From Oscillospiraceae bacterium (GTDB lineage: Bacteria > Bacillota > Clostridia > Oscillospirales > Oscillospiraceae), in contig JAFSMZ010000053.1 in the NCBI GenBank assembly GCA_017447685.1, positions 2,914 through 66,913 on the forward strand: a DNA stretch of 64,000 bases, read 5' to 3'. Under the pieces are notes generated by a model. That model did no database searches. It saw only the letters and a program-made list of their open reading frames with translations, and had not been told where the DNA came from. The first letter of the stretch is position 1. Every line of letters starts with the position of its first letter. A program made the position numbers and the translations under genes. Below, one piece after another: positions 1 through 14,980 of this stretch.

Positions 1-100
1 CATGGATTATTCCGACCCGGAGAACATCCGTCCCCAGTTTTTCCGGGCGGAGCTGCAGCGGGGCATACTGGACCTGCGGGATTGTGAGGTGTTCCGATGA
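1..100 (+). CDS. cas5: Cas5 (type I-C Cas5c/Cas5d) C-terminal fragment; the gene starts upstream of the window
   Basis: Open frame from the window edge to TGA 98-100 (..DYSDPENIRPQFFRAELQRGILDLRDCEVFR*). ATGA overlap with the cas8c start at 97. Sits directly upstream of cas8c-cas7, as in type I-C operons. Confidence 0.5.
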   Translation, partial: MDYSDPENIRPQFFRAELQRGILDLRDCEVFR

Positions 101-1851
101 TCCTTCAGGCTTTGGTGGATTATTATGAGGAACTGGCCTCGCAGGGAAAGCTTCCCCGTCCCGGCTGGGCAACAGTAAAAGTGTCCTGGGCGCTGGAGAT
201 CGACGGATCCGGCAGGCTTCTGGATGTGCTTCCCCTCCGCCATCCCAGCGAGGACGGGAAGAGGATGCTGCCTCTGGAGATGGAACTGCCTGCTCCGGTG
301 AAACGCTCCTCCGGTGTGCTGCCGAACTTCCTGTGGGACAACTCCTCTTATCTCCTGGGGCTGGACAACAAGGGAAAAGCAAAACGGGCGGAGGAGTGTT
401 TTGCAGCGGCAAAAGCCCTGCACCTCAAATTGCTCTCTGATGCGGACAGCCTCACAGCGAAAGCAATCTCTGCGTTTTTCTCCACCTGGGATCCGAAGAC
501 GGCGGACAAGATCTCTGCCTTTGCTGCCCATCGGGAGGACCTGCTTGCCGGGGAAAACCTGTGCTTCTTCTGCTGCGGCGTCTTTGCGCAGGACGACCCG
601 CTGATCCGGGAGATTTGGGAGGCTGCTTATGAGGAAAGCGCCGAAGGAGAAGCCGAGCCCTGCCTCATCACCGGAAAGGAAACTGTCCCCGAGCTTGTAC
701 ACCCTGCCATCAAGAATGTCCGGGACGCCCAGTCCTCCGGCGCGGCGCTGGTCTCCTTCAATGCTCCGGCCTTCTGCTCCTACGGAAAAGAGCAAAACGC
801 CAACGCGCCTGTCAGCAAATATGCGGCCTTTGCCTATACCACGGCGCTGAACCGCCTCCTGGCGGATCGGGAGCATGTCAAGGTCATCGGCAATACCACG
901 GTGATCTATTGGGCCAAAAGCGCTGAGAGCCAGTATCAGGATATTTTCACCGCTCTGCTTGACGGCGCGGGCGACAGCGTGACCGACGCCGATCTCAATG
1001 CGCTCATGACCTCCGTCGCCGCTGGCAAGCCCTACAACTATGACGGGCTTCCCATCGAGCCGGAGAACGAATTCTTTATCCTTGGCATCTCGCCCAACGC
1101 AGCCCGCTTGTCCGTCCGCTTTTTCTATCGCAGCAGCTTTGGCCGCGTCGTGGAGAACCTGAAACGGCATTATGACGATATCCGGATCGTCTCCGACGGA
1201 CGCAGCAAGTGGAACACCACGCCCCTCTGGGCGCTTCTGCGCGAGACGGTGAACCAGAAAGCCAGCGATAAAAGCCCGCTTCCCCAGCTGGCCGGAGACA
1301 TGATGAAATCCATGCTCGGCGGCGGGAGATATCCGGAGACGCTCATGCAGCAGACCCTGCTGCGCATCCGGGCGGAGCATATCGTCACCCGCGAAAAAGC
1401 GGGTATCGTAAAAGCCTATCTGATCCGCAATACAGAAAATCATCCCCAACGGGGATCCATCATGGAGGTGACAACCGTGTCCTTGAATCCCGAAAGCGCG
1501 TATCCCCCTTATGTCCTCGGACGGCTCTTCGCCGTGCTGGAGGGCGCCCAGCAGGCGGCCAATCCCGGCATCAACGCCACCATCAAAGACCGCTTCTTCA
1601 ATTCCGCCTGCGCAACGCCTGCGGCGGTCTTCCCCCTCTTGCTGAAGCTCTCCAACAGCCATCTGAAAAAGATGGACGCGGGAAAAGCCATCTGGTGGTC
1701 CAGACAGATCGGAGAGCTCATCGACCGGCTCGGCGTGGACTTCCCCGCGCACCAGACGCTGCAGGAGCAGGGCGCTTTTATCCTCGGCTATTACCATCAG
1801 ACCCAGAAACGTTTTGAAAAGAAAAACAATACCGATAAGGAGGCAGAATAA
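97..1851 (+). CDS. cas8c: Cas8c/Csd1, type I-C Cascade large subunit
   Basis: 584-aa ORF. The N-terminus MILQALVDYYEEL.. and the length are recognised as Csd1-like. Flanked by the cas5 fragment and cas7, and a type I-C-style repeat array follows. Confidence 0.85.
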   Translation: MILQALVDYYEELASQGKLPRPGWATVKVSWALEIDGSGRLLDVLPLRHPSEDGKRMLPLEMELPAPVKRSSGVLPNFLWDNSSYLLGLDNKGKAKRAEECFAAAKALHLKLLSDADSLTAKAISAFFSTWDPKTADKISAFAAHREDLLAGENLCFFCCGVFAQDDPLIREIWEAAYEESAEGEAEPCLITGKETVPELVHPAIKNVRDAQSSGAALVSFNAPAFCSYGKEQNANAPVSKYAAFAYTTALNRLLADREHVKVIGNTTVIYWAKSAESQYQDIFTALLDGAGDSVTDADLNALMTSVAAGKPYNYDGLPIEPENEFFILGISPNAARLSVRFFYRSSFGRVVENLKRHYDDIRIVSDGRSKWNTTPLWALLRETVNQKASDKSPLPQLAGDMMKSMLGGGRYPETLMQQTLLRIRAEHIVTREKAGIVKAYLIRNTENHPQRGSIMEVTTVSLNPESAYPPYVLGRLFAVLEGAQQAANPGINATIKDRFFNSACATPAAVFPLLLKLSNSHLKKMDAGKAIWWSRQIGELIDRLGVDFPAHQTLQEQGAFILGYYHQTQKRFEKKNNTDKEAE

Positions 1852-1852
1852 A

Positions 1853-2743
1853 ATGTCTGAAGCGATCAAGAACAGGTATGAATTTGTGGTGCTCTTCGAT
1901 GTGGAGAACGGCAATCCCAACGGCGACCCCGACGCGGGCAACATTCCCCGGGTCGATCCCGAGACGGGCTACGGCATTGTGACCGACGTCTGCCTCAAGC
2001 GCAAGATCCGCAATTACGTGGAGACGGTGAAGGAAGATCAGCCCGGCTTTGAGATCTACATCAAGGAGGGCGTCCCCCTCAACCGCAGCGACCGGCGCGC
2101 CTTCGAATACCTGGGCCTGGAAGAGGGCAAGGTCAAGGAGGCAAAGAAGGCCGACAAGGATCTGGACCGCAAAGTCCGGGACTTCATGTGCCGGAACTTC
2201 TTTGATGTCCGTACTTTCGGAGCGGTCATGACCACCTTCACCAAAAACGCCCTCAACTGCGGCCAGGTCCGCGGCCCCGTGCAGCTCTCCTTTGCCCGCA
2301 GCGTGGACCCCATCGTCCCTCAGGAGCTCACCATCACCCGCACCGCCATCACCACCGAGGCGGATGCGGAGAACAAGAAAACCGAAATGGGCCGCAAATT
2401 CATCGTGCCCTATGGCCTCTACCGGGCCGAGGGCTATGTGTCCGCCAATCTGGCCCGCAAGACCACCGGTTTCTCCGAGGAGGATCTGGAGCTTCTCTGG
2501 CAGGCGATCTTGAACATGTTTGAAAACGATCATGCCGCCGGAAGAGGCAAGATGGCGGTACGCAAACTCATCATCTTCAGGCATGATTCCGAGCTCGGCA
2601 ATGCCCCGGCCCATAAGCTCTTTGACGCGGTCTCTGTCAAGCGTCTGGACGAGAGCAGCCCCGCCCGCTGCTTTGCCGATTACGTCCTCACCGTGGACGA
2701 GTCTGCGATCCCTGCCGGCGTGACCGTGGAGTACAGGGAGTAA
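1853..2743 (+). CDS. cas7: Cas7c/Csd2, type I-C Cascade backbone subunit
   Basis: ATG 1853 is preceded by AAGGAGG (1837-1843). MSEAIKNRYEFVVLFDVENGNPNGDPDAGN.. is the Csd2/DevR-type N-terminal motif. The track ORF start at 1814 lies inside cas8c and is rejected. Confidence 0.9.
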   Translation: MSEAIKNRYEFVVLFDVENGNPNGDPDAGNIPRVDPETGYGIVTDVCLKRKIRNYVETVKEDQPGFEIYIKEGVPLNRSDRRAFEYLGLEEGKVKEAKKADKDLDRKVRDFMCRNFFDVRTFGAVMTTFTKNALNCGQVRGPVQLSFARSVDPIVPQELTITRTAITTEADAENKKTEMGRKFIVPYGLYRAEGYVSANLARKTTGFSEEDLELLWQAILNMFENDHAAGRGKMAVRKLIIFRHDSELGNAPAHKLFDAVSVKRLDESSPARCFADYVLTVDESAIPAGVTVEYRE

Positions 2744-2746
2744 AAA

Positions 2747-4525
2747 GTCTCGCCCCACGTGGGCGAGTGGATTGAAATAATGTGATCCCCTGCAGCGATT
2801 TCCGCGTGGAATAGTCTCGCCCCAGGCGGGGCGAGTGGATTGAAATCCTTCTTCCCGCCCAAACGCGGCACCCCGCGCCCGTCTCGCCCCACGCGGGGCG
2901 AGTGGATTGAAATGGAAAGAATCATCTGTAGGAGGGATGAAATTGGCGTCTCGCCCCACTCGGGGCGAGTGGATTGAAACTCGCCCAAAAATTCCTTCGT
3001 ATGTTTCCACACGGTGTCTCGCCTCATGCGGGCGAGTGGATTGAAATTACGGCAATCCCCAGAATTGCGAGCTGCCCATCTTGTCTCGCCCCACGCGGGG
3101 CGAGTGGATTGAAATCTGCAGTGTCATAAGTATGCCCACGGCAAATGCAGTCTCGCCCCACGCGGGGCAAGTGGATTGAAATCTCGTAGGTGATGCGCTC
3201 ATCTCCGATCACAAGCTGTCTCGCCCCATGCGGGGCGAGTGGATTGAAATTACATGCCGGTGCAGCCTGCCGGTTACGGCTACGGTCTCGCCCCGAGTGG
3301 GGCGAGTGGATTGAAATCCTGTGTTTGCCAATATCGGTAACCAGCCTGTTTAGTCTCGCCCCAGGCGGGGCGAGTGGATTGAAATCTTGACCACTGCATC
3401 TACGAGCTGGACAAGCACAGTCTCGCCCCACGCGGGGCGAGTGGATTGAAATTTGGTGCGAGTTTTGGCCAACGCCACAGCCTCCTTGTCTCGCCCCACG
3501 CGGGGCGAGTGGATTGAAATAACGGAGAAATTGGTGAGCTGCCTGGTTGCCGCTGACTCGCCCTGCTTGGGCGCGTGGATTGAAATTCGCCGAAAAACTC
3601 TTTTGTTTGCTTCCACACGCCTTCTCGCTCCATGTGGGCGAAGGGATAGAAATAACATCCTGAAACTTGTGGTTGGATTTATCGTGGGTCTCGTCCTACA
3701 AGGGGTGAGTGGATTGAAATATCATGGACATTGACCGAGGTATCAACACCAGCGGTCTCGCCCCATGCGGGGGAGGGGATTGAAATGTACAGGTACGGAT
3801 TGGTACGCCTTATTTGCATGTCTCGCCCCACGCGGGGCGAGTGGATTGAAACTCGTTCCGGATGATCTTCCGGCGGGCAATCTCCGTCTCGCCCCACGCG
3901 GAGCGAGTGGATTGAAATAGTGCCTTTTTTCAAGCACTCCTTTCAATTTGGTGTCTCGCCCCACGGGGGGCGAGTGGATTGAAATAACGACCTTGAGCTC
4001 AACTGCTACATGGTGGCCGTGTCTCGCCCCACGCGGGCGAGTGGATTGAAATATCGAGAACGTGGGCGCACCTGTCCTGAAGGGTACGTCTCGCCCCAGA
4101 CGGGACGAGTGGATTGAAATACCAAGGGCATTGCTTACGCCGAGTTTTTTGACGTGTCTCGCCCCACGCGGGGCGAGTGGATTGAAATAAAAAGACAGGC
4201 CGGCACTTTCCCATTGAGGATCGTCTCGCCCCACGCGGGGCGAGTGGATTGAAATCAGATGCAGAAGTGGCTTGAAAAGTCTGCTCTTTGTCTCGCCCCA
4301 CGCGGGGCAAGTGGATTGATATTTCTTTTGGGCTTCGTATTTGGAAATCTCGCTCATGCCTCGCCCCACGTGGGCGAGTGGATTGAAATGGCCTTAGATT
4401 GATATAAAAACCGCAGTGCTTCGGTCTCGCCCTACGCGGGGCGAGTGGATTGAAATTCTCCGAAAAACTCCTTGGTATGTTCCCAGACCAAAGTCTCGCC
4501 CCACGCGGGGCGAGTGGATTGAAAG
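2747..4525 (+). CRISPR. CRISPR array, 27 repeats and 26 spacers, type I-C repeat family
   Basis: Consensus repeat GTCTCGCCCCACGCGGGGCGAGTGGATTGAAAT (33 bp; internal palindrome CGCCCC/GGGGCG; 3' ATTGAAAT handle). Repeat starts: 2747, 2814, 2881, 2948, 3016, 3083, 3150, 3218, 3285, 3353, 3420, 3488, 3555, 3621, 3688, 3755, 3820, 3886, 3953, 4021, 4088, 4156, 4223, 4290, 4358, 4424, 4493. Spacers are 33-36 bp. Confidence 0.97.
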
Positions 4526-4573: not shown

Positions 4574-4605
4574 AAAAAAGCAGAGGCAAAAGCCTCTGCT
4601 TTTTT
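4574..4605. terminator. Bidirectional rho-independent terminator
   Basis: AAAAAA-GCAGAGGC-aaaa-GCCTCTGC-TTTTTT. Lies between the array end and the convergent peptidase gene. Confidence 0.7.
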
Positions 4606-14014: not shown

Positions 14015-14980
14015 ATGATGGAAAACACAAAAAGATCCCGCAAACGCGGCGTGAGCTATGCCAAGTGGGGCTATATCTTTATTCTGCCCTTCTTCGTGAC
14101 GTACATCATCTTCACGCTGACGCCGCAGATCATGACGATCTACAACAGCTTCTTTGAAAACTACCGCAACGGCCTGACCCAGGTGGGCCCCAATTTCGTG
14201 GGTTTTCAGAACTATGTGAAGCTCTTTACCCCGGACAAAAGCGGAACGGTGGACGTGCTCAAATACTTCGGCAATACCGTCCTGCTCTGGGTCATGGGCG
14301 CGGTGCCCCAGATCCTGGTGGCGCTGCTGCTGGCGGTCTTCTTTACCAGCTACCGGCTGAACCTGAAGGGACAGCAGTTTTTCAAGACCGTGATCTACAT
14401 GCCGAACCTGATCATGGCCTCCGCCTTTTCCATGCTGTTCTTCACCCTGTTCTCCCCGGTGGGACCGGTGAACCAGGTGATGCTGGCCGCCGGCTGGGCC
14501 GACAAGGCCATCGACTTTTTGTCCCTGAAGATCCCGGTGCGGATGCTCATTTCCCTGATGAACTTCCTGATGTGGTTCGGCAACACCACGATCCTGCTGA
14601 TGGCGGGCATCCAGGGCATCGACCAGAACATGTTTGAGGCGGCGGAGATCGACGGGGCCAGTTCCCTGCAGGTCTTCTTCCGGGTAACGCTGCCGCTGCT
14701 GGCTCCCATCCTGGTTTACACGGTGATCACGGCCATGATCGGCGGCCTGCAGATGTTCGACGTGCCCCAGATCCTGACAAACGGCAAGGGCACCCCGGAC
14801 CGGGCCAGCATGACCCTGGTGATGTACCTGAACAACTACCTGCAGACCAGCAAAAACTACGGCATGGCCGGCGCGGTCAGCGTGGTGCTGTTCCTCGTGT
14901 CCTCGGTGCTGAGCCTGTTTGTGTACAACACCCTGTCCAAGCAGTACAGAGAATCGCCCCGGAAACGGGATCGGATCTGA
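14015..14980 (+). CDS. Carbohydrate ABC transporter permease (MalF/UgpA-like)
   Basis: ATG 14015 follows GGGAGGGA. Multi-TM protein with an EAAxxDGA-type loop (FEAAEIDGAS). Confidence 0.85.
   Translation: MMENTKRSRKRGVSYAKWGYIFILPFFVTYIIFTLTPQIMTIYNSFFENYRNGLTQVGPNFVGFQNYVKLFTPDKSGTVDVLKYFGNTVLLWVMGAVPQILVALLLAVFFTSYRLNLKGQQFFKTVIYMPNLIMASAFSMLFFTLFSPVGPVNQVMLAAGWADKAIDFLSLKIPVRMLISLMNFLMWFGNTTILLMAGIQGIDQNMFEAAEIDGASSLQVFFRVTLPLLAPILVYTVITAMIGGLQMFDVPQILTNGKGTPDRASMTLVMYLNNYLQTSKNYGMAGAVSVVLFLVSSVLSLFVYNTLSKQYRESPRKRDRI

What the first reader, a model, noticed from the sequence alone, without database searches (positions are those of the whole stretch)
2981..4492. Three spacers are codon-periodic variants of one protospacer
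Three spacers align end to end:
- Spacer 4 (2981-3015): tcgcccaaaaattccttcgtatgtttccacacggt
- Spacer 13 (3587-3620): tcgccgaaaaactcttttgtttgcttccacacgc
- Spacer 26 (4457-4492): tctccgaaaaactccttggtatgttcccagaccaaa

Between spacers 4 and 13, six of the seven mismatches fall at positions 6, 12, 15, 18, 21 and 24, that is, every third base. The reverse complements encode VWKHTKEFLG, VWKQTKEFFG and VWEHTKEFFG.

This pattern is what independent acquisitions from the same site of a conserved protein-coding gene in diverged invaders would produce. Possible causes are a hot protospacer, priming, or repeated encounters with escape variants. Random drift of a duplicated spacer would not give it.
Basis: seen in the sequence. 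Interest (0 to 1): 0.6.

Follow-up and report, generated by a model that had tools for sequence, protein, structure and literature searches.

The report
Three spacers, one microvirus capsid site
Three memory units in a gut bacterium's CRISPR array are separate captures of one very conserved site in the capsid gene of small single-stranded-DNA phages (microviruses); this is a clear but ordinary record of repeated encounters with diverged viruses.

Summary
Spacers 4 (2981-3015), 13 (3587-3621) and 26 (4457-4492) of a 27-repeat type I-C array align in the same register. They share 25-27 of 35 bases, against at most 18 for any other spacer pair. Their differences fall almost only on every third base.

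The target is identified. It is the major capsid gene VP1 (Pfam Phage_F) of gokushovirus-like Microviridae, at the motif RLVW-x-HTKEFFGEN, and the coding strand is the reverse complement of the spacers. The codons for Glu and Asn that follow the motif supply the type I-C PAM (TTC, or TTT in many viruses) exactly 5' of the protospacer.

The columns that vary among the three spacers are essentially the columns that vary among 11 natural viral copies.

Some caveats apply:
- No near-exact source virus was found; the best match is 30 of 36 bases.
- An orthologous metagenome array shows that one or two of spacer 13's differences arose inside the array.
- No cas1, cas2 or cas4 was found.

The pattern recurs in related I-C arrays, has a published precedent (Legionella I-C) and was met several times before in this scan on other DNA. 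It is a new member of a known kind, of modest interest.

The parts
97..1851 (+). cas8c (Csd1), the large subunit of the type I-C Cascade
   Evidence: Pfam Cas_Csd1, E 1e-178, full length.
1853..2743 (+). cas7 (Csd2). Its stop codon lies 3 nt before the first repeat, with no cas4-cas1-cas2 and no leader between.
   Evidence: Pfam Cas_Cas7, E 2e-109. The junction is read. The same junction is present in the orthologous locus L006.
2747..4525 (+). Type I-C CRISPR array with 27 repeats and 26 spacers, transcribed on the + strand.
   Evidence: The repeat hairpin folds at -16.8 kcal/mol. Orientation is supported by a TTC PAM 5' of protospacers read in the + sense.
2981..3015 (+). Spacer 4. Its reverse complement encodes T-VWKHTKEFLG-(E). 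It is a variant of the VP1 protospacer.
3587..3621 (+). Spacer 13. Its reverse complement encodes G-VWKQTKEFFG-(E). It is a variant of the same protospacer. The orthologous copy in L006 differs at positions 18 and 21 and encodes H instead of Q.
4457..4492 (+). Spacer 26. Its reverse complement encodes LVWEHTKEFFG-(E), identical to the motif of many natural VP1 proteins.
3318..3352 (+). Spacer 9. It is in coding sense and encodes PVFANIGNQPV, a second conserved VP1 motif of Microviridae.
   Evidence: It matches gokushovirus capsid genes at 86% in the phage collection (H5 and H6). The motif is found in 82 microvirus loci, 11 of them with TTC directly 5'.
4323..4357 (+). Spacer 24. It matches 31/35 bases of an unannotated human-gut phage scaffold (MT836198) with a TTC PAM, over the start codon of a gene on the opposite strand.
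   Evidence: (H4).
3555..3653 (+). The two most degenerate repeats of the array (3555-3586 and 3622-3653), which flank spacer 13.
   Evidence: The downstream repeat folds weakly (-7.5 kcal/mol, z -0.8) against -16.8 for the consensus. The same degenerate repeat is shared with L006.
4580..4605 (+). GC-rich hairpin followed by a T-run just after the last repeat. It is the likely terminator of the array transcript and may work in both directions.
   Evidence: Read in the sequence. The consensus scan did not list it.

Best explanation
The three spacers are independent acquisitions, by a type I-C system, of the same PAM-defined protospacer from three diverged gokushovirus-like microviruses.

The site lies in the most conserved stretch of the major capsid gene VP1 (RLVW-x-HTKEFFGEN). 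The invariant Glu-Asn codons that follow it put TT(C/T) exactly 5' of the protospacer on the strand opposite to the coding strand. Every virus whose Glu codon is GAG therefore offers the same TTC PAM in the same register.

The amino acids are fixed, so the viral copies differ almost only at third codon positions, and so do the spacers.

Inferred, not shown: published Dvu I-C data report little tolerance of mismatches except at positions 6, 12, 18, 24 and 30. The spacers differ from each other at 3 to 7 other positions. One spacer therefore probably does not cover the other genotypes, and a new capture at the same site was favoured each time a diverged virus or a silent-site escape variant was met. 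Spacers at conserved sites would be kept longest.

Cascade made from these crRNAs would pair with the packaged (coding) strand in the double-stranded replicative form, and Cas3 would then degrade it.

Spacer 13 is the oldest and is decaying: its flanking repeats are degenerate and at least one base changed inside the array.
For: Shown:
- The spacers share one register and 25-27/35 identities, against a background of at most 18/34.
- 8-9 of 11-12 variable columns are multiples of 3, P 4e-4 to 2.5e-3.
- The degenerate pattern hits only microvirus contigs of 2.2-7.1 kb plus one orthologous array. The genome-contig scan, which may leave out records of the window's own genome, found nothing.
- The site lies in Phage_F genes, and the coding strand is opposite to the spacer.
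- The motif and its GEN tail are conserved in 54 of 55 VP1 genes. The PAM position reads TTC in 23 and TTT in 31.
- The natural variable columns (3, 6, 9, 12, 15, 18, 21, 24, 26, 30, 33, 35) nearly equal the spacer variable columns.
- The spacer-specific residues exist in nature: K in L004 and L in L015.
- Each spacer is as close to viral copies (up to 29-30/36) as to its sister spacers.
- The repeats flanking spacers 4 and 26 are near consensus and fold well.
- The I-C interference genes cas3, cas5d, cas8c and cas7 are intact.
- Other spacers of this lineage hit other conserved microvirus motifs: spacer 9 in VP1, and L006 spacer 10 in the Rep motif CAYVARY.

From the literature:
- The Dvu I-C PAM is TTC, far better than TTT. 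Only mismatches at 6, 12, 18, 24 and 30 are harmless (PMC10579709).
- Legionella I-C arrays hold older and newer spacers on overlapping sites of one element, read there as priming by escape variants (PMC5071653).
- Gut Microviridae are CRISPR-targeted by Firmicutes (10.1101/2020.09.04.282665).
Against: - No viral sequence matches any of the three spacers better than 30/36, so the actual donors are not in the collections searched.
- The PAM-distal codon of spacers 4 and 13 (Thr, Gly) is not seen in about 105 natural VP1 sequences, which all have Leu or Ile.
- For the pair spacer 4 versus the L006 form of spacer 13 alone, only 4 of 6 differences are in phase. The case for that pair rests on positions 1-32, where 4 of 4 are in phase.
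- No cas1, cas2 or leader was found in the 86%-complete genome. It is therefore unclear when and by what machinery the captures were made.
- Interference activity, crRNA processing and cross-protection were not tested.
Confidence: 0.85

Rival explanations
1. One spacer was captured once. The repeat-spacer unit was then duplicated within the array by recombination between repeats, and the copies drifted apart by point mutation.
For: - The array does rearrange and mutate. The orthologous array L006 carries shared spacers in a different order. Its copies of spacers 13 and 14 and of the repeat between them differ from the window's by about 7%, against 4.4% in the cas genes.
- The repeats downstream of spacers 4 and 13 both carry a CATG loop and a one-base-shorter G run.
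- Position 21 of spacer 13 looks like an in-array mutation.
Against: - Drift should hit all positions alike, yet 8-9 of 11-12 variable columns are in one codon phase and coincide with the columns that vary among natural viruses.
- The repeats flanking spacers 4 and 26 are 1-3 changes from consensus, while the spacers differ at 9 of 35 positions.
- The shared repeat features (a transition at a CG dinucleotide, a G-run slip) recur in several unrelated repeats of the array.
Confidence: 0.07
2. The three variants come from different strains of a population and were threaded into one array by metagenome assembly. No single cell would then carry all three.
For: - The genome is a bin of 83 contigs, 86% complete.
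- CRISPR arrays are prone to mis-assembly.
- L006 shows that related strains carry differently ordered arrays.
Against: - Each variant sits between different unique spacers and different repeat variants, in a 72-kb contig.
- Same-array variant pairs and triples of this kind are also present in assemblies labelled as strains rather than MAGs: L117 and L176.
- Even if true, it would not change the inference of independent captures at one site.
Confidence: 0.08
3. Re-capture at exactly the same site is directed rather than passive. A mismatched older spacer primes adaptation, and the Cascade-marked protospacer itself is preferentially re-sampled, so the spacer is in effect updated.
For: - A 5-kb microvirus offers about 213 TTC sites on both strands, so three hits at one site are unexpected under uniform sampling.
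- Same-register variants recur in 5 of 38 other I-C arrays as codon-periodic pairs or triples, and in a sixth (L176) as a pair that differs at position 3 and at the last base.
- Priming is shown for I-C in Legionella (PMC5071653).
Against: - Such pairs can only be detected at conserved sites, which shrinks the effective number of sites.
- Selection for conserved targets explains the retention without any directed mechanism.
- No adaptation genes are present to examine.
- In published priming data the new spacers are spread over the target. Two independently acquired spacers did hit one protospacer, but most did not.
Confidence: 0.08

Closest known systems
Paired spacers on overlapping LME-1 protospacers in Legionella pneumophila type I-C arrays (Rao et al. 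2016, PMC5071653)
   Same: It is the same CRISPR subtype and the same PAM (5'-TTC, written there as 3' GAA). Several spacers in one array are aimed at the same site of one kind of invader, and older copies are mismatched. The authors read this as repeated challenge by escape variants, with priming.
   Different: Here there are three copies in an identical register. The invader is a family of ssDNA microviruses rather than an integrative element. The differences are codon-periodic because the donors are deeply diverged. The locus has no adaptation genes, and no exact donor is known.
CRISPR targeting of human-gut Microviridae by Firmicutes, Bacteroides and Proteobacteria (Sugimoto et al. 2020, bioRxiv 10.1101/2020.09.04.282665)
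   Same: Small circular genomes that encode a Phage_F capsid protein and a Rep protein are matched by spacers of gut Firmicutes-type arrays.
   Different: That work links genomes to hosts at scale. In the passages I read it does not describe repeated capture of one conserved capsid site within one array.
Type I-C Cascade-Cas3 of Desulfovibrio vulgaris: target rules (Li et al. 2023, PMC10579709)
   Same: The gene set (cas3, cas5d, cas8c, cas7), the TTC PAM and spacers of 34-36 nt are shared. The rule that positions 6, 12, 18, 24 and 30 are not read explains why half of the silent differences here would be invisible to Cascade.
   Different: Those rules were measured in plant cells with another orthologue. 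They are applied here by inference only.
Earlier findings of this scan on other genomes (e1-5245622, e1-2802962, e1-085592, e1-5840758, e1-5706051)
   Same: Two to four spacers of one array are point or silent-site variants of one protospacer. They were judged real and ordinary. In one case a sister strain showed that part of the differences arose inside a frozen array.
   Different: Those are other CRISPR types and other invaders. Here the target gene, its motif and the codon origin of the PAM are identified.

Membership tests
Type I-C CRISPR-Cas | The signature gene cas8c (Csd1) together with cas5d, cas7 (Csd2) and cas3 | tested here: met
   Cas_Csd1 at E 1e-178 and Cas_Cas7 at E 2e-109. Cas3 (710 aa) and Cas_Cas5d at E 1e-38 lie just upstream of the window on the same contig. 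The gene order is the same in L006.
Type I-C CRISPR-Cas | The adaptation module cas4-cas1-cas2 and a leader between cas7 and the array | tested here: not met
   The cas7 stop codon is 3 nt from repeat 1. No Cas1 or Cas2 match exists in the whole 86%-complete genome. In 38 related I-C loci the array mostly starts about 2.2-3.2 kb after cas7, and never less than about 1 kb. Absence from an incomplete bin is not proof.
Type I-C CRISPR-Cas | PAM 5'-TTC directly 5' of the protospacer on the strand with the spacer's sequence | tested here: met
   TTC is present in L002, L009 and L010 for the triple, in MT836198 for spacer 24, and in 11 of 82 viral copies of the spacer 9 site. The other viral copies of the triple's site have TTT.
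Type I-C CRISPR-Cas | A 32-33-nt repeat with a stable hairpin and a 3' end ...ATTGAAA(C/T) | tested here: met
   Repeat consensus. The hairpin has 8 bp and folds at -16.8 kcal/mol. The same repeat ending is found in 38 related I-C loci. Rfam has no matching model.
Target: Microviridae (gokushovirus-like) major capsid gene VP1 | The protospacer lies in a Phage_F (PF02305) gene of a 4.5-6 kb genome that also encodes a Rep protein | tested here: met
   Phage_F at E 1e-99 to 1e-145 and REP_ORF2-G2P in L001 and L002. Chlamy_scaf and Phage_ORF5 neighbours are present in L180, L181 and L184.
Record of primed adaptation against escape variants | The older spacer is mismatched and the newer one perfect against a known invader, with further new spacers from the same strand of the same invader | not testable with these tools
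   No exact donor genome was found, and the polarity of the array is uncertain without a leader. Only one further microvirus spacer (9) was recognised, and it lies on the other strand.

The most novel reading that the evidence does not exclude
Exact re-capture of one PAM-registered site may be a regular property of type I-C immunity in gut Clostridia rather than a coincidence. Two readings would fit.

The first is that a mismatched spacer directs re-sampling of its own protospacer, so the spacer is updated.

The second is that sites in this codon register are kept preferentially. Here the PAM's C and all five unread positions (6, 12, 18, 24, 30) fall on wobble bases, so half of all silent drift is invisible to Cascade.

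Hints in favour:
- 9 of 12 spacers or spacer groups whose phase could be read have the wobble at multiples of 3. This is my own tally, not a computed test.
- GC content over 895 I-C spacers shows a weak period of 3 with the same phase: 0.526, 0.505 and 0.487.
Probability: 0.1. Interest if true: 0.6.

Novelty: new member of a known kind. Interest (0 to 1): 0.3.

Why it matters
It links an uncultured gut Clostridia lineage to a clade of gokushovirus-like microviruses, viruses whose hosts are mostly unknown. The nearest Cas7 relatives of this lineage are Oscillospiraceae-type genomes.

It also shows concretely how a fixed protein motif (GEN) can pin both a PAM and a protospacer, so that one site is hit again and again. 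Together with the missing adaptation genes, it suggests an old, slowly decaying array that survives on spacers against the most conserved viral motifs.

The process itself, repeated capture of variants of one site, is already documented, so this adds an example and not a principle.

Tried and rejected
1. Plus-strand coding. Frame 0 of the + strand is open and makes all six differences between spacers 4 and 13 silent. It is rejected because in all viral hits the Phage_F gene is on the opposite strand.

2. Exact donors. These searches found none closer than 30/36:
   - the whole array against 50,697 phage records;
   - a back-translation pattern against IMG/VR, JGI metagenomes and GTDB genomes;
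   - patterns for VWKHTKEF with or without the odd preceding residue (no hit in IMG/VR);
   - a protein search giving 40 VP1 clusters with the motif, with DNA fetched for six of them.

3. The other 22 spacers against about 95 microvirus genomes, at DNA and peptide level with reversed-sequence decoys. Only spacers 4, 9, 13 and 26 stand above the decoys.

4. Self-targeting. There is no Phage_F gene in the own genome; the tool's control genomes did not ring either, so this is weak.

5. A second array or adaptation genes elsewhere in the genome. None was found.

6. The same VP1 site in 889 spacers of 38 related I-C arrays. None was found, so the site is not a universal hot spot in this sample. One of those arrays (L176) does hold two variants of one microvirus Rep-gene site with a TTC PAM.

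7. Rfam and promoter/terminator scans of the array gave nothing useful.

Full report
**What is in the sequence.**
Positions 2747-4525 hold a CRISPR array of 27 repeats of 33 nt and 26 spacers of 33-36 nt.
- The repeat forms an 8-bp GC hairpin (-16.8 kcal/mol) and ends in ...GGATTGAAAT.
- Directly upstream, on the same strand, lie cas8c (97-1851) and cas7 (1853-2743).
- Upstream of the window on the same contig lie a full-length cas3 and cas5d.
- This is therefore a type I-C interference module.
- The cas7 stop codon is 3 nt from the first repeat, so there is no cas4-cas1-cas2 and no leader.
- No Cas1 or Cas2 match exists anywhere in the 2.6-Mb, 86%-complete genome bin, and there is no second array with this repeat.

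**Check of the observation.**
- Spacers 4 (2981-3015), 13 (3587-3621) and 26 (4457-4492) align without any shift at 27/35, 26/35 and 25/35 identities.
- All other spacer pairs, on both strands and at any offset up to 10, reach at most 18/34.
- The mismatches are at these positions:
  - spacers 4 and 13: 6, 12, 15, 18, 21, 24, 34, 35;
  - spacers 4 and 26: 3, 6, 12, 18, 26, 30, 33, 34, 35;
  - spacers 13 and 26: 3, 15, 18, 21, 24, 26, 30, 33, 34, 35.
- Of the 12 variable columns, 9 are multiples of 3. The hypergeometric probability is about 4e-4 after multiplying by three for the choice of phase.

**What the spacers target.**
I replaced every third base of the common sequence with N. This is in effect a back-translation of VW-x-HTKEFFGE.
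- The pattern hit two IMG/VR contigs of 5.6 and 5.0 kb and seven metagenome contigs.
- It hit nothing in the species-representative genomes, a scan that may leave out the window's own genome.
- Eight of the nine hits are microvirus genomes or fragments.
- In L001 and L002, where I translated the gene, the site lies in a 550-570-aa gene that matches Pfam Phage_F, the Microviridae major capsid protein, at E 1e-145 and 4e-99. It lies on the strand opposite to the spacer sequence, and a Rep gene is nearby.
- Related genomes also carry the Chlamydia-phage scaffold and ORF5 families, so the viruses are gokushovirus-like.
- The + strand frame, which is also open and would make spacers 4 and 13 fully synonymous, is a coincidence of the phase.

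**Why this site.**
- In the 55 VP1 genes in which the motif search located the site (of about 90 microvirus loci held at that point), the motif reads R-(L/I)-x-W-x-H-x-K-x-F-x-G-E-N.
- G-E-N is present in 54 of the 55.
- The protospacer starts at the second base of the complement of the Glu codon. The three bases 5' of it are therefore TT, from the Asn codon AAY, plus the complement of the Glu wobble base. That gives TTC when Glu is GAG and TTT when it is GAA.
- Of the 55 genes, 23 have TTC and 31 have TTT. L002, L009 and L010 have TTC directly before the protospacer.
- TTC is the type I-C PAM (PMC5071653; PMC10579709).
- A fixed protein motif thus pins both the PAM and the register, which explains why all three spacers start at the same base.
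- The PAM assignment and the array orientation have independent support:
  - spacer 24 matches a gut phage scaffold at 31/35 with TTC 5';
  - the site of spacer 9 is preceded by an in-frame TTC (Phe) in 11 of 82 viral copies.

**Independent captures or a drifted duplicate.**
- Among 11 natural copies of the HTKEFFGEN type, the variable columns are 3, 6, 9, 12, 15, 18, 21, 24, 26, 30, 33 and 35.
- Among the three spacers they are 3, 6, 12, 15, 18, 21, 24, 26, 30, 33, 34 and 35.
- Even the one internal out-of-phase column (26) is the second base of the one variable residue of the motif (E, K, N, D, S).
- The residues peculiar to the spacers occur in nature: K in L004 and L in place of F in L015.
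- Each spacer is as similar to viral copies (up to 29/35 and 30/36) as to its sisters.
- Spacer 9 lies in a second conserved VP1 motif, P-V-F-A-N-I-G-x-Q-P. At least four of the 26 spacers are therefore aimed at microvirus capsid genes.
- The other 22 spacers gave nothing above decoy level against about 95 microvirus genomes.

**What the orthologous array adds.**
One metagenome contig (L006) carries the same locus: cas3, cas5d, cas8c, cas7 and then the array.
- It is 95.6% identical over 2743 nt of cas8c and cas7 without gaps, and it has the same junction between the cas7 stop codon and the first repeat.
- It shares spacer 16 and spacer 21 exactly.
- It shares a block made of spacer 13, a degenerate repeat and spacer 14, with about 7% differences, but in a different order. 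Its first five spacers are different.
- Its copy of spacer 13 differs at positions 18 and 21 and encodes His, where the window's copy encodes Gln.
- Since nearly all natural VP1 sequences inspected have His there (two have Tyr), position 21 of the window's spacer 13 is most likely a mutation inside the array.
- With the L006 form, the three-way phase test still gives P 2.5e-3. Within positions 1-32, all four differences between spacer 4 and spacer 13 are in phase.
- The repeat after spacer 13 folds poorly (-7.5 kcal/mol, z -0.8), so its crRNA may no longer be made.
- Another L006 spacer encodes the Rep motif CAYVARY, found in 65 microvirus loci.

**How it most likely works.**
Shown: the I-C interference genes are intact, the target gene and the PAM are identified, and the captures are independent.

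Inferred:
- The crRNAs are antisense to VP1, so they pair with the packaged strand. PAM reading needs double-stranded DNA, so interference would act on the replicative form.
- In Dvu I-C, single mismatches are harmless only at positions 6, 12, 18, 24 and 30, and TTT works about fifty times worse than TTC (PMC10579709).
- In this register those five positions are all wobble bases.
- After removing them, spacer 4 and spacer 13 still differ at 3-4 positions, and spacer 26 differs from both at 5-7, including position 3 of the seed.
- The three spacers would therefore cover different viral genotypes, and a diverged virus or a silent-site escape variant would call for a new capture.
- Whether priming by the older, mismatched spacer helped, as proposed for Legionella I-C, cannot be told.

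**How unusual it is.**
- A 5-kb microvirus has about 213 TTC sites, so three hits at one site are not expected under uniform sampling.
- Variants can, however, only be recognised at conserved sites, and spacers at conserved sites are the ones selection would keep.
- The pattern is not rare. Among 889 spacers from 38 related I-C arrays, five arrays hold same-register, codon-periodic pairs or triples. One is a triple in L117 whose differences all fall on multiples of 3.
- L176 holds two variants of one site in the microvirus Rep gene, again with TTC 5'.
- The Legionella work is a published precedent.
- This scan has met the same kind of record several times on other DNA and judged it ordinary.

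**Unexplained details and caveats.**
- The PAM-distal codon of spacers 4 and 13 encodes Thr and Gly, where all about 105 natural VP1 sequences inspected have Leu or Ile.
- No donor virus closer than 30/36 was found.
- The genome is a metagenome bin, so a chimeric array cannot be fully excluded.
- The organism's taxonomy was not established. Its nearest Cas7 relatives, at most 79% identical, are Oscillospiraceae and other gut Clostridia.

**Verdict.**
The feature is real, the reading is correct and the target is identified. It is a new member of a known kind, and I score its interest at 0.3.

Noticed in passing
window 1-4525; L006 1955-8213: The type I-C locus is cas3-cas5d-cas8c-cas7 followed at once by the array. 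It has no cas4-cas1-cas2 and no leader, and no Cas1 or Cas2 was found in the 86%-complete genome. The same junction is kept in a lineage whose cas genes are 4.4% diverged, yet the cas7-proximal spacers differ between the two arrays. In 38 related I-C loci the array never starts less than about 1 kb after cas7.
   Followed up: partly
window 3555-3786; L006 7776-7990: Four degenerate repeats sit in the middle of the array. The one between spacers 13 and 14 is shared, with its odd changes, with L006. Shared spacers are ordered differently: 16 precedes 13 in L006. Spacers 16 and 21 are identical between the lineages, while the block of spacers 13 and 14 is about 7% diverged.
   Followed up: partly
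window 4323-4357; MT836198 11049-11084 (L185 1501-1536): Spacer 24 matches an unannotated human-gut phage scaffold at 31/35 with a TTC PAM. The match covers the ribosome-binding-site-proximal start codon of a gene on the opposite strand. Three of the four mismatches are at multiples of 3.
   Followed up: partly
L117 about 14294-14870, and other pairs in L117, L119, L137, L141 and L176: Other Clostridia I-C arrays hold same-register spacer variants whose differences are codon-periodic. These include a triple in L117, and in L176 two variants of one microvirus Rep-gene site (motif SLRKRDFQLFMKRLRK) with a TTC PAM.
   Followed up: partly
895 I-C spacers (38 related arrays plus the window): GC content by spacer position shows a weak period of 3: 0.526, 0.505 and 0.487 for positions 3n, 3n+1 and 3n+2. 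This suggests a preferred register of TTC-PAM protospacers relative to the codon frame. By my tally, 9 of 12 spacers or spacer groups with a readable phase have the wobble at 3n.
   Followed up: partly
window 3013-3015 and 3619-3621: The last codon of spacers 4 and 13 reads Thr and Gly, where all natural VP1 sequences inspected have Leu or Ile. Possible causes are unusual donor viruses, PAM-distal mutation in the array, or imprecise trimming at capture.
   Followed up: no
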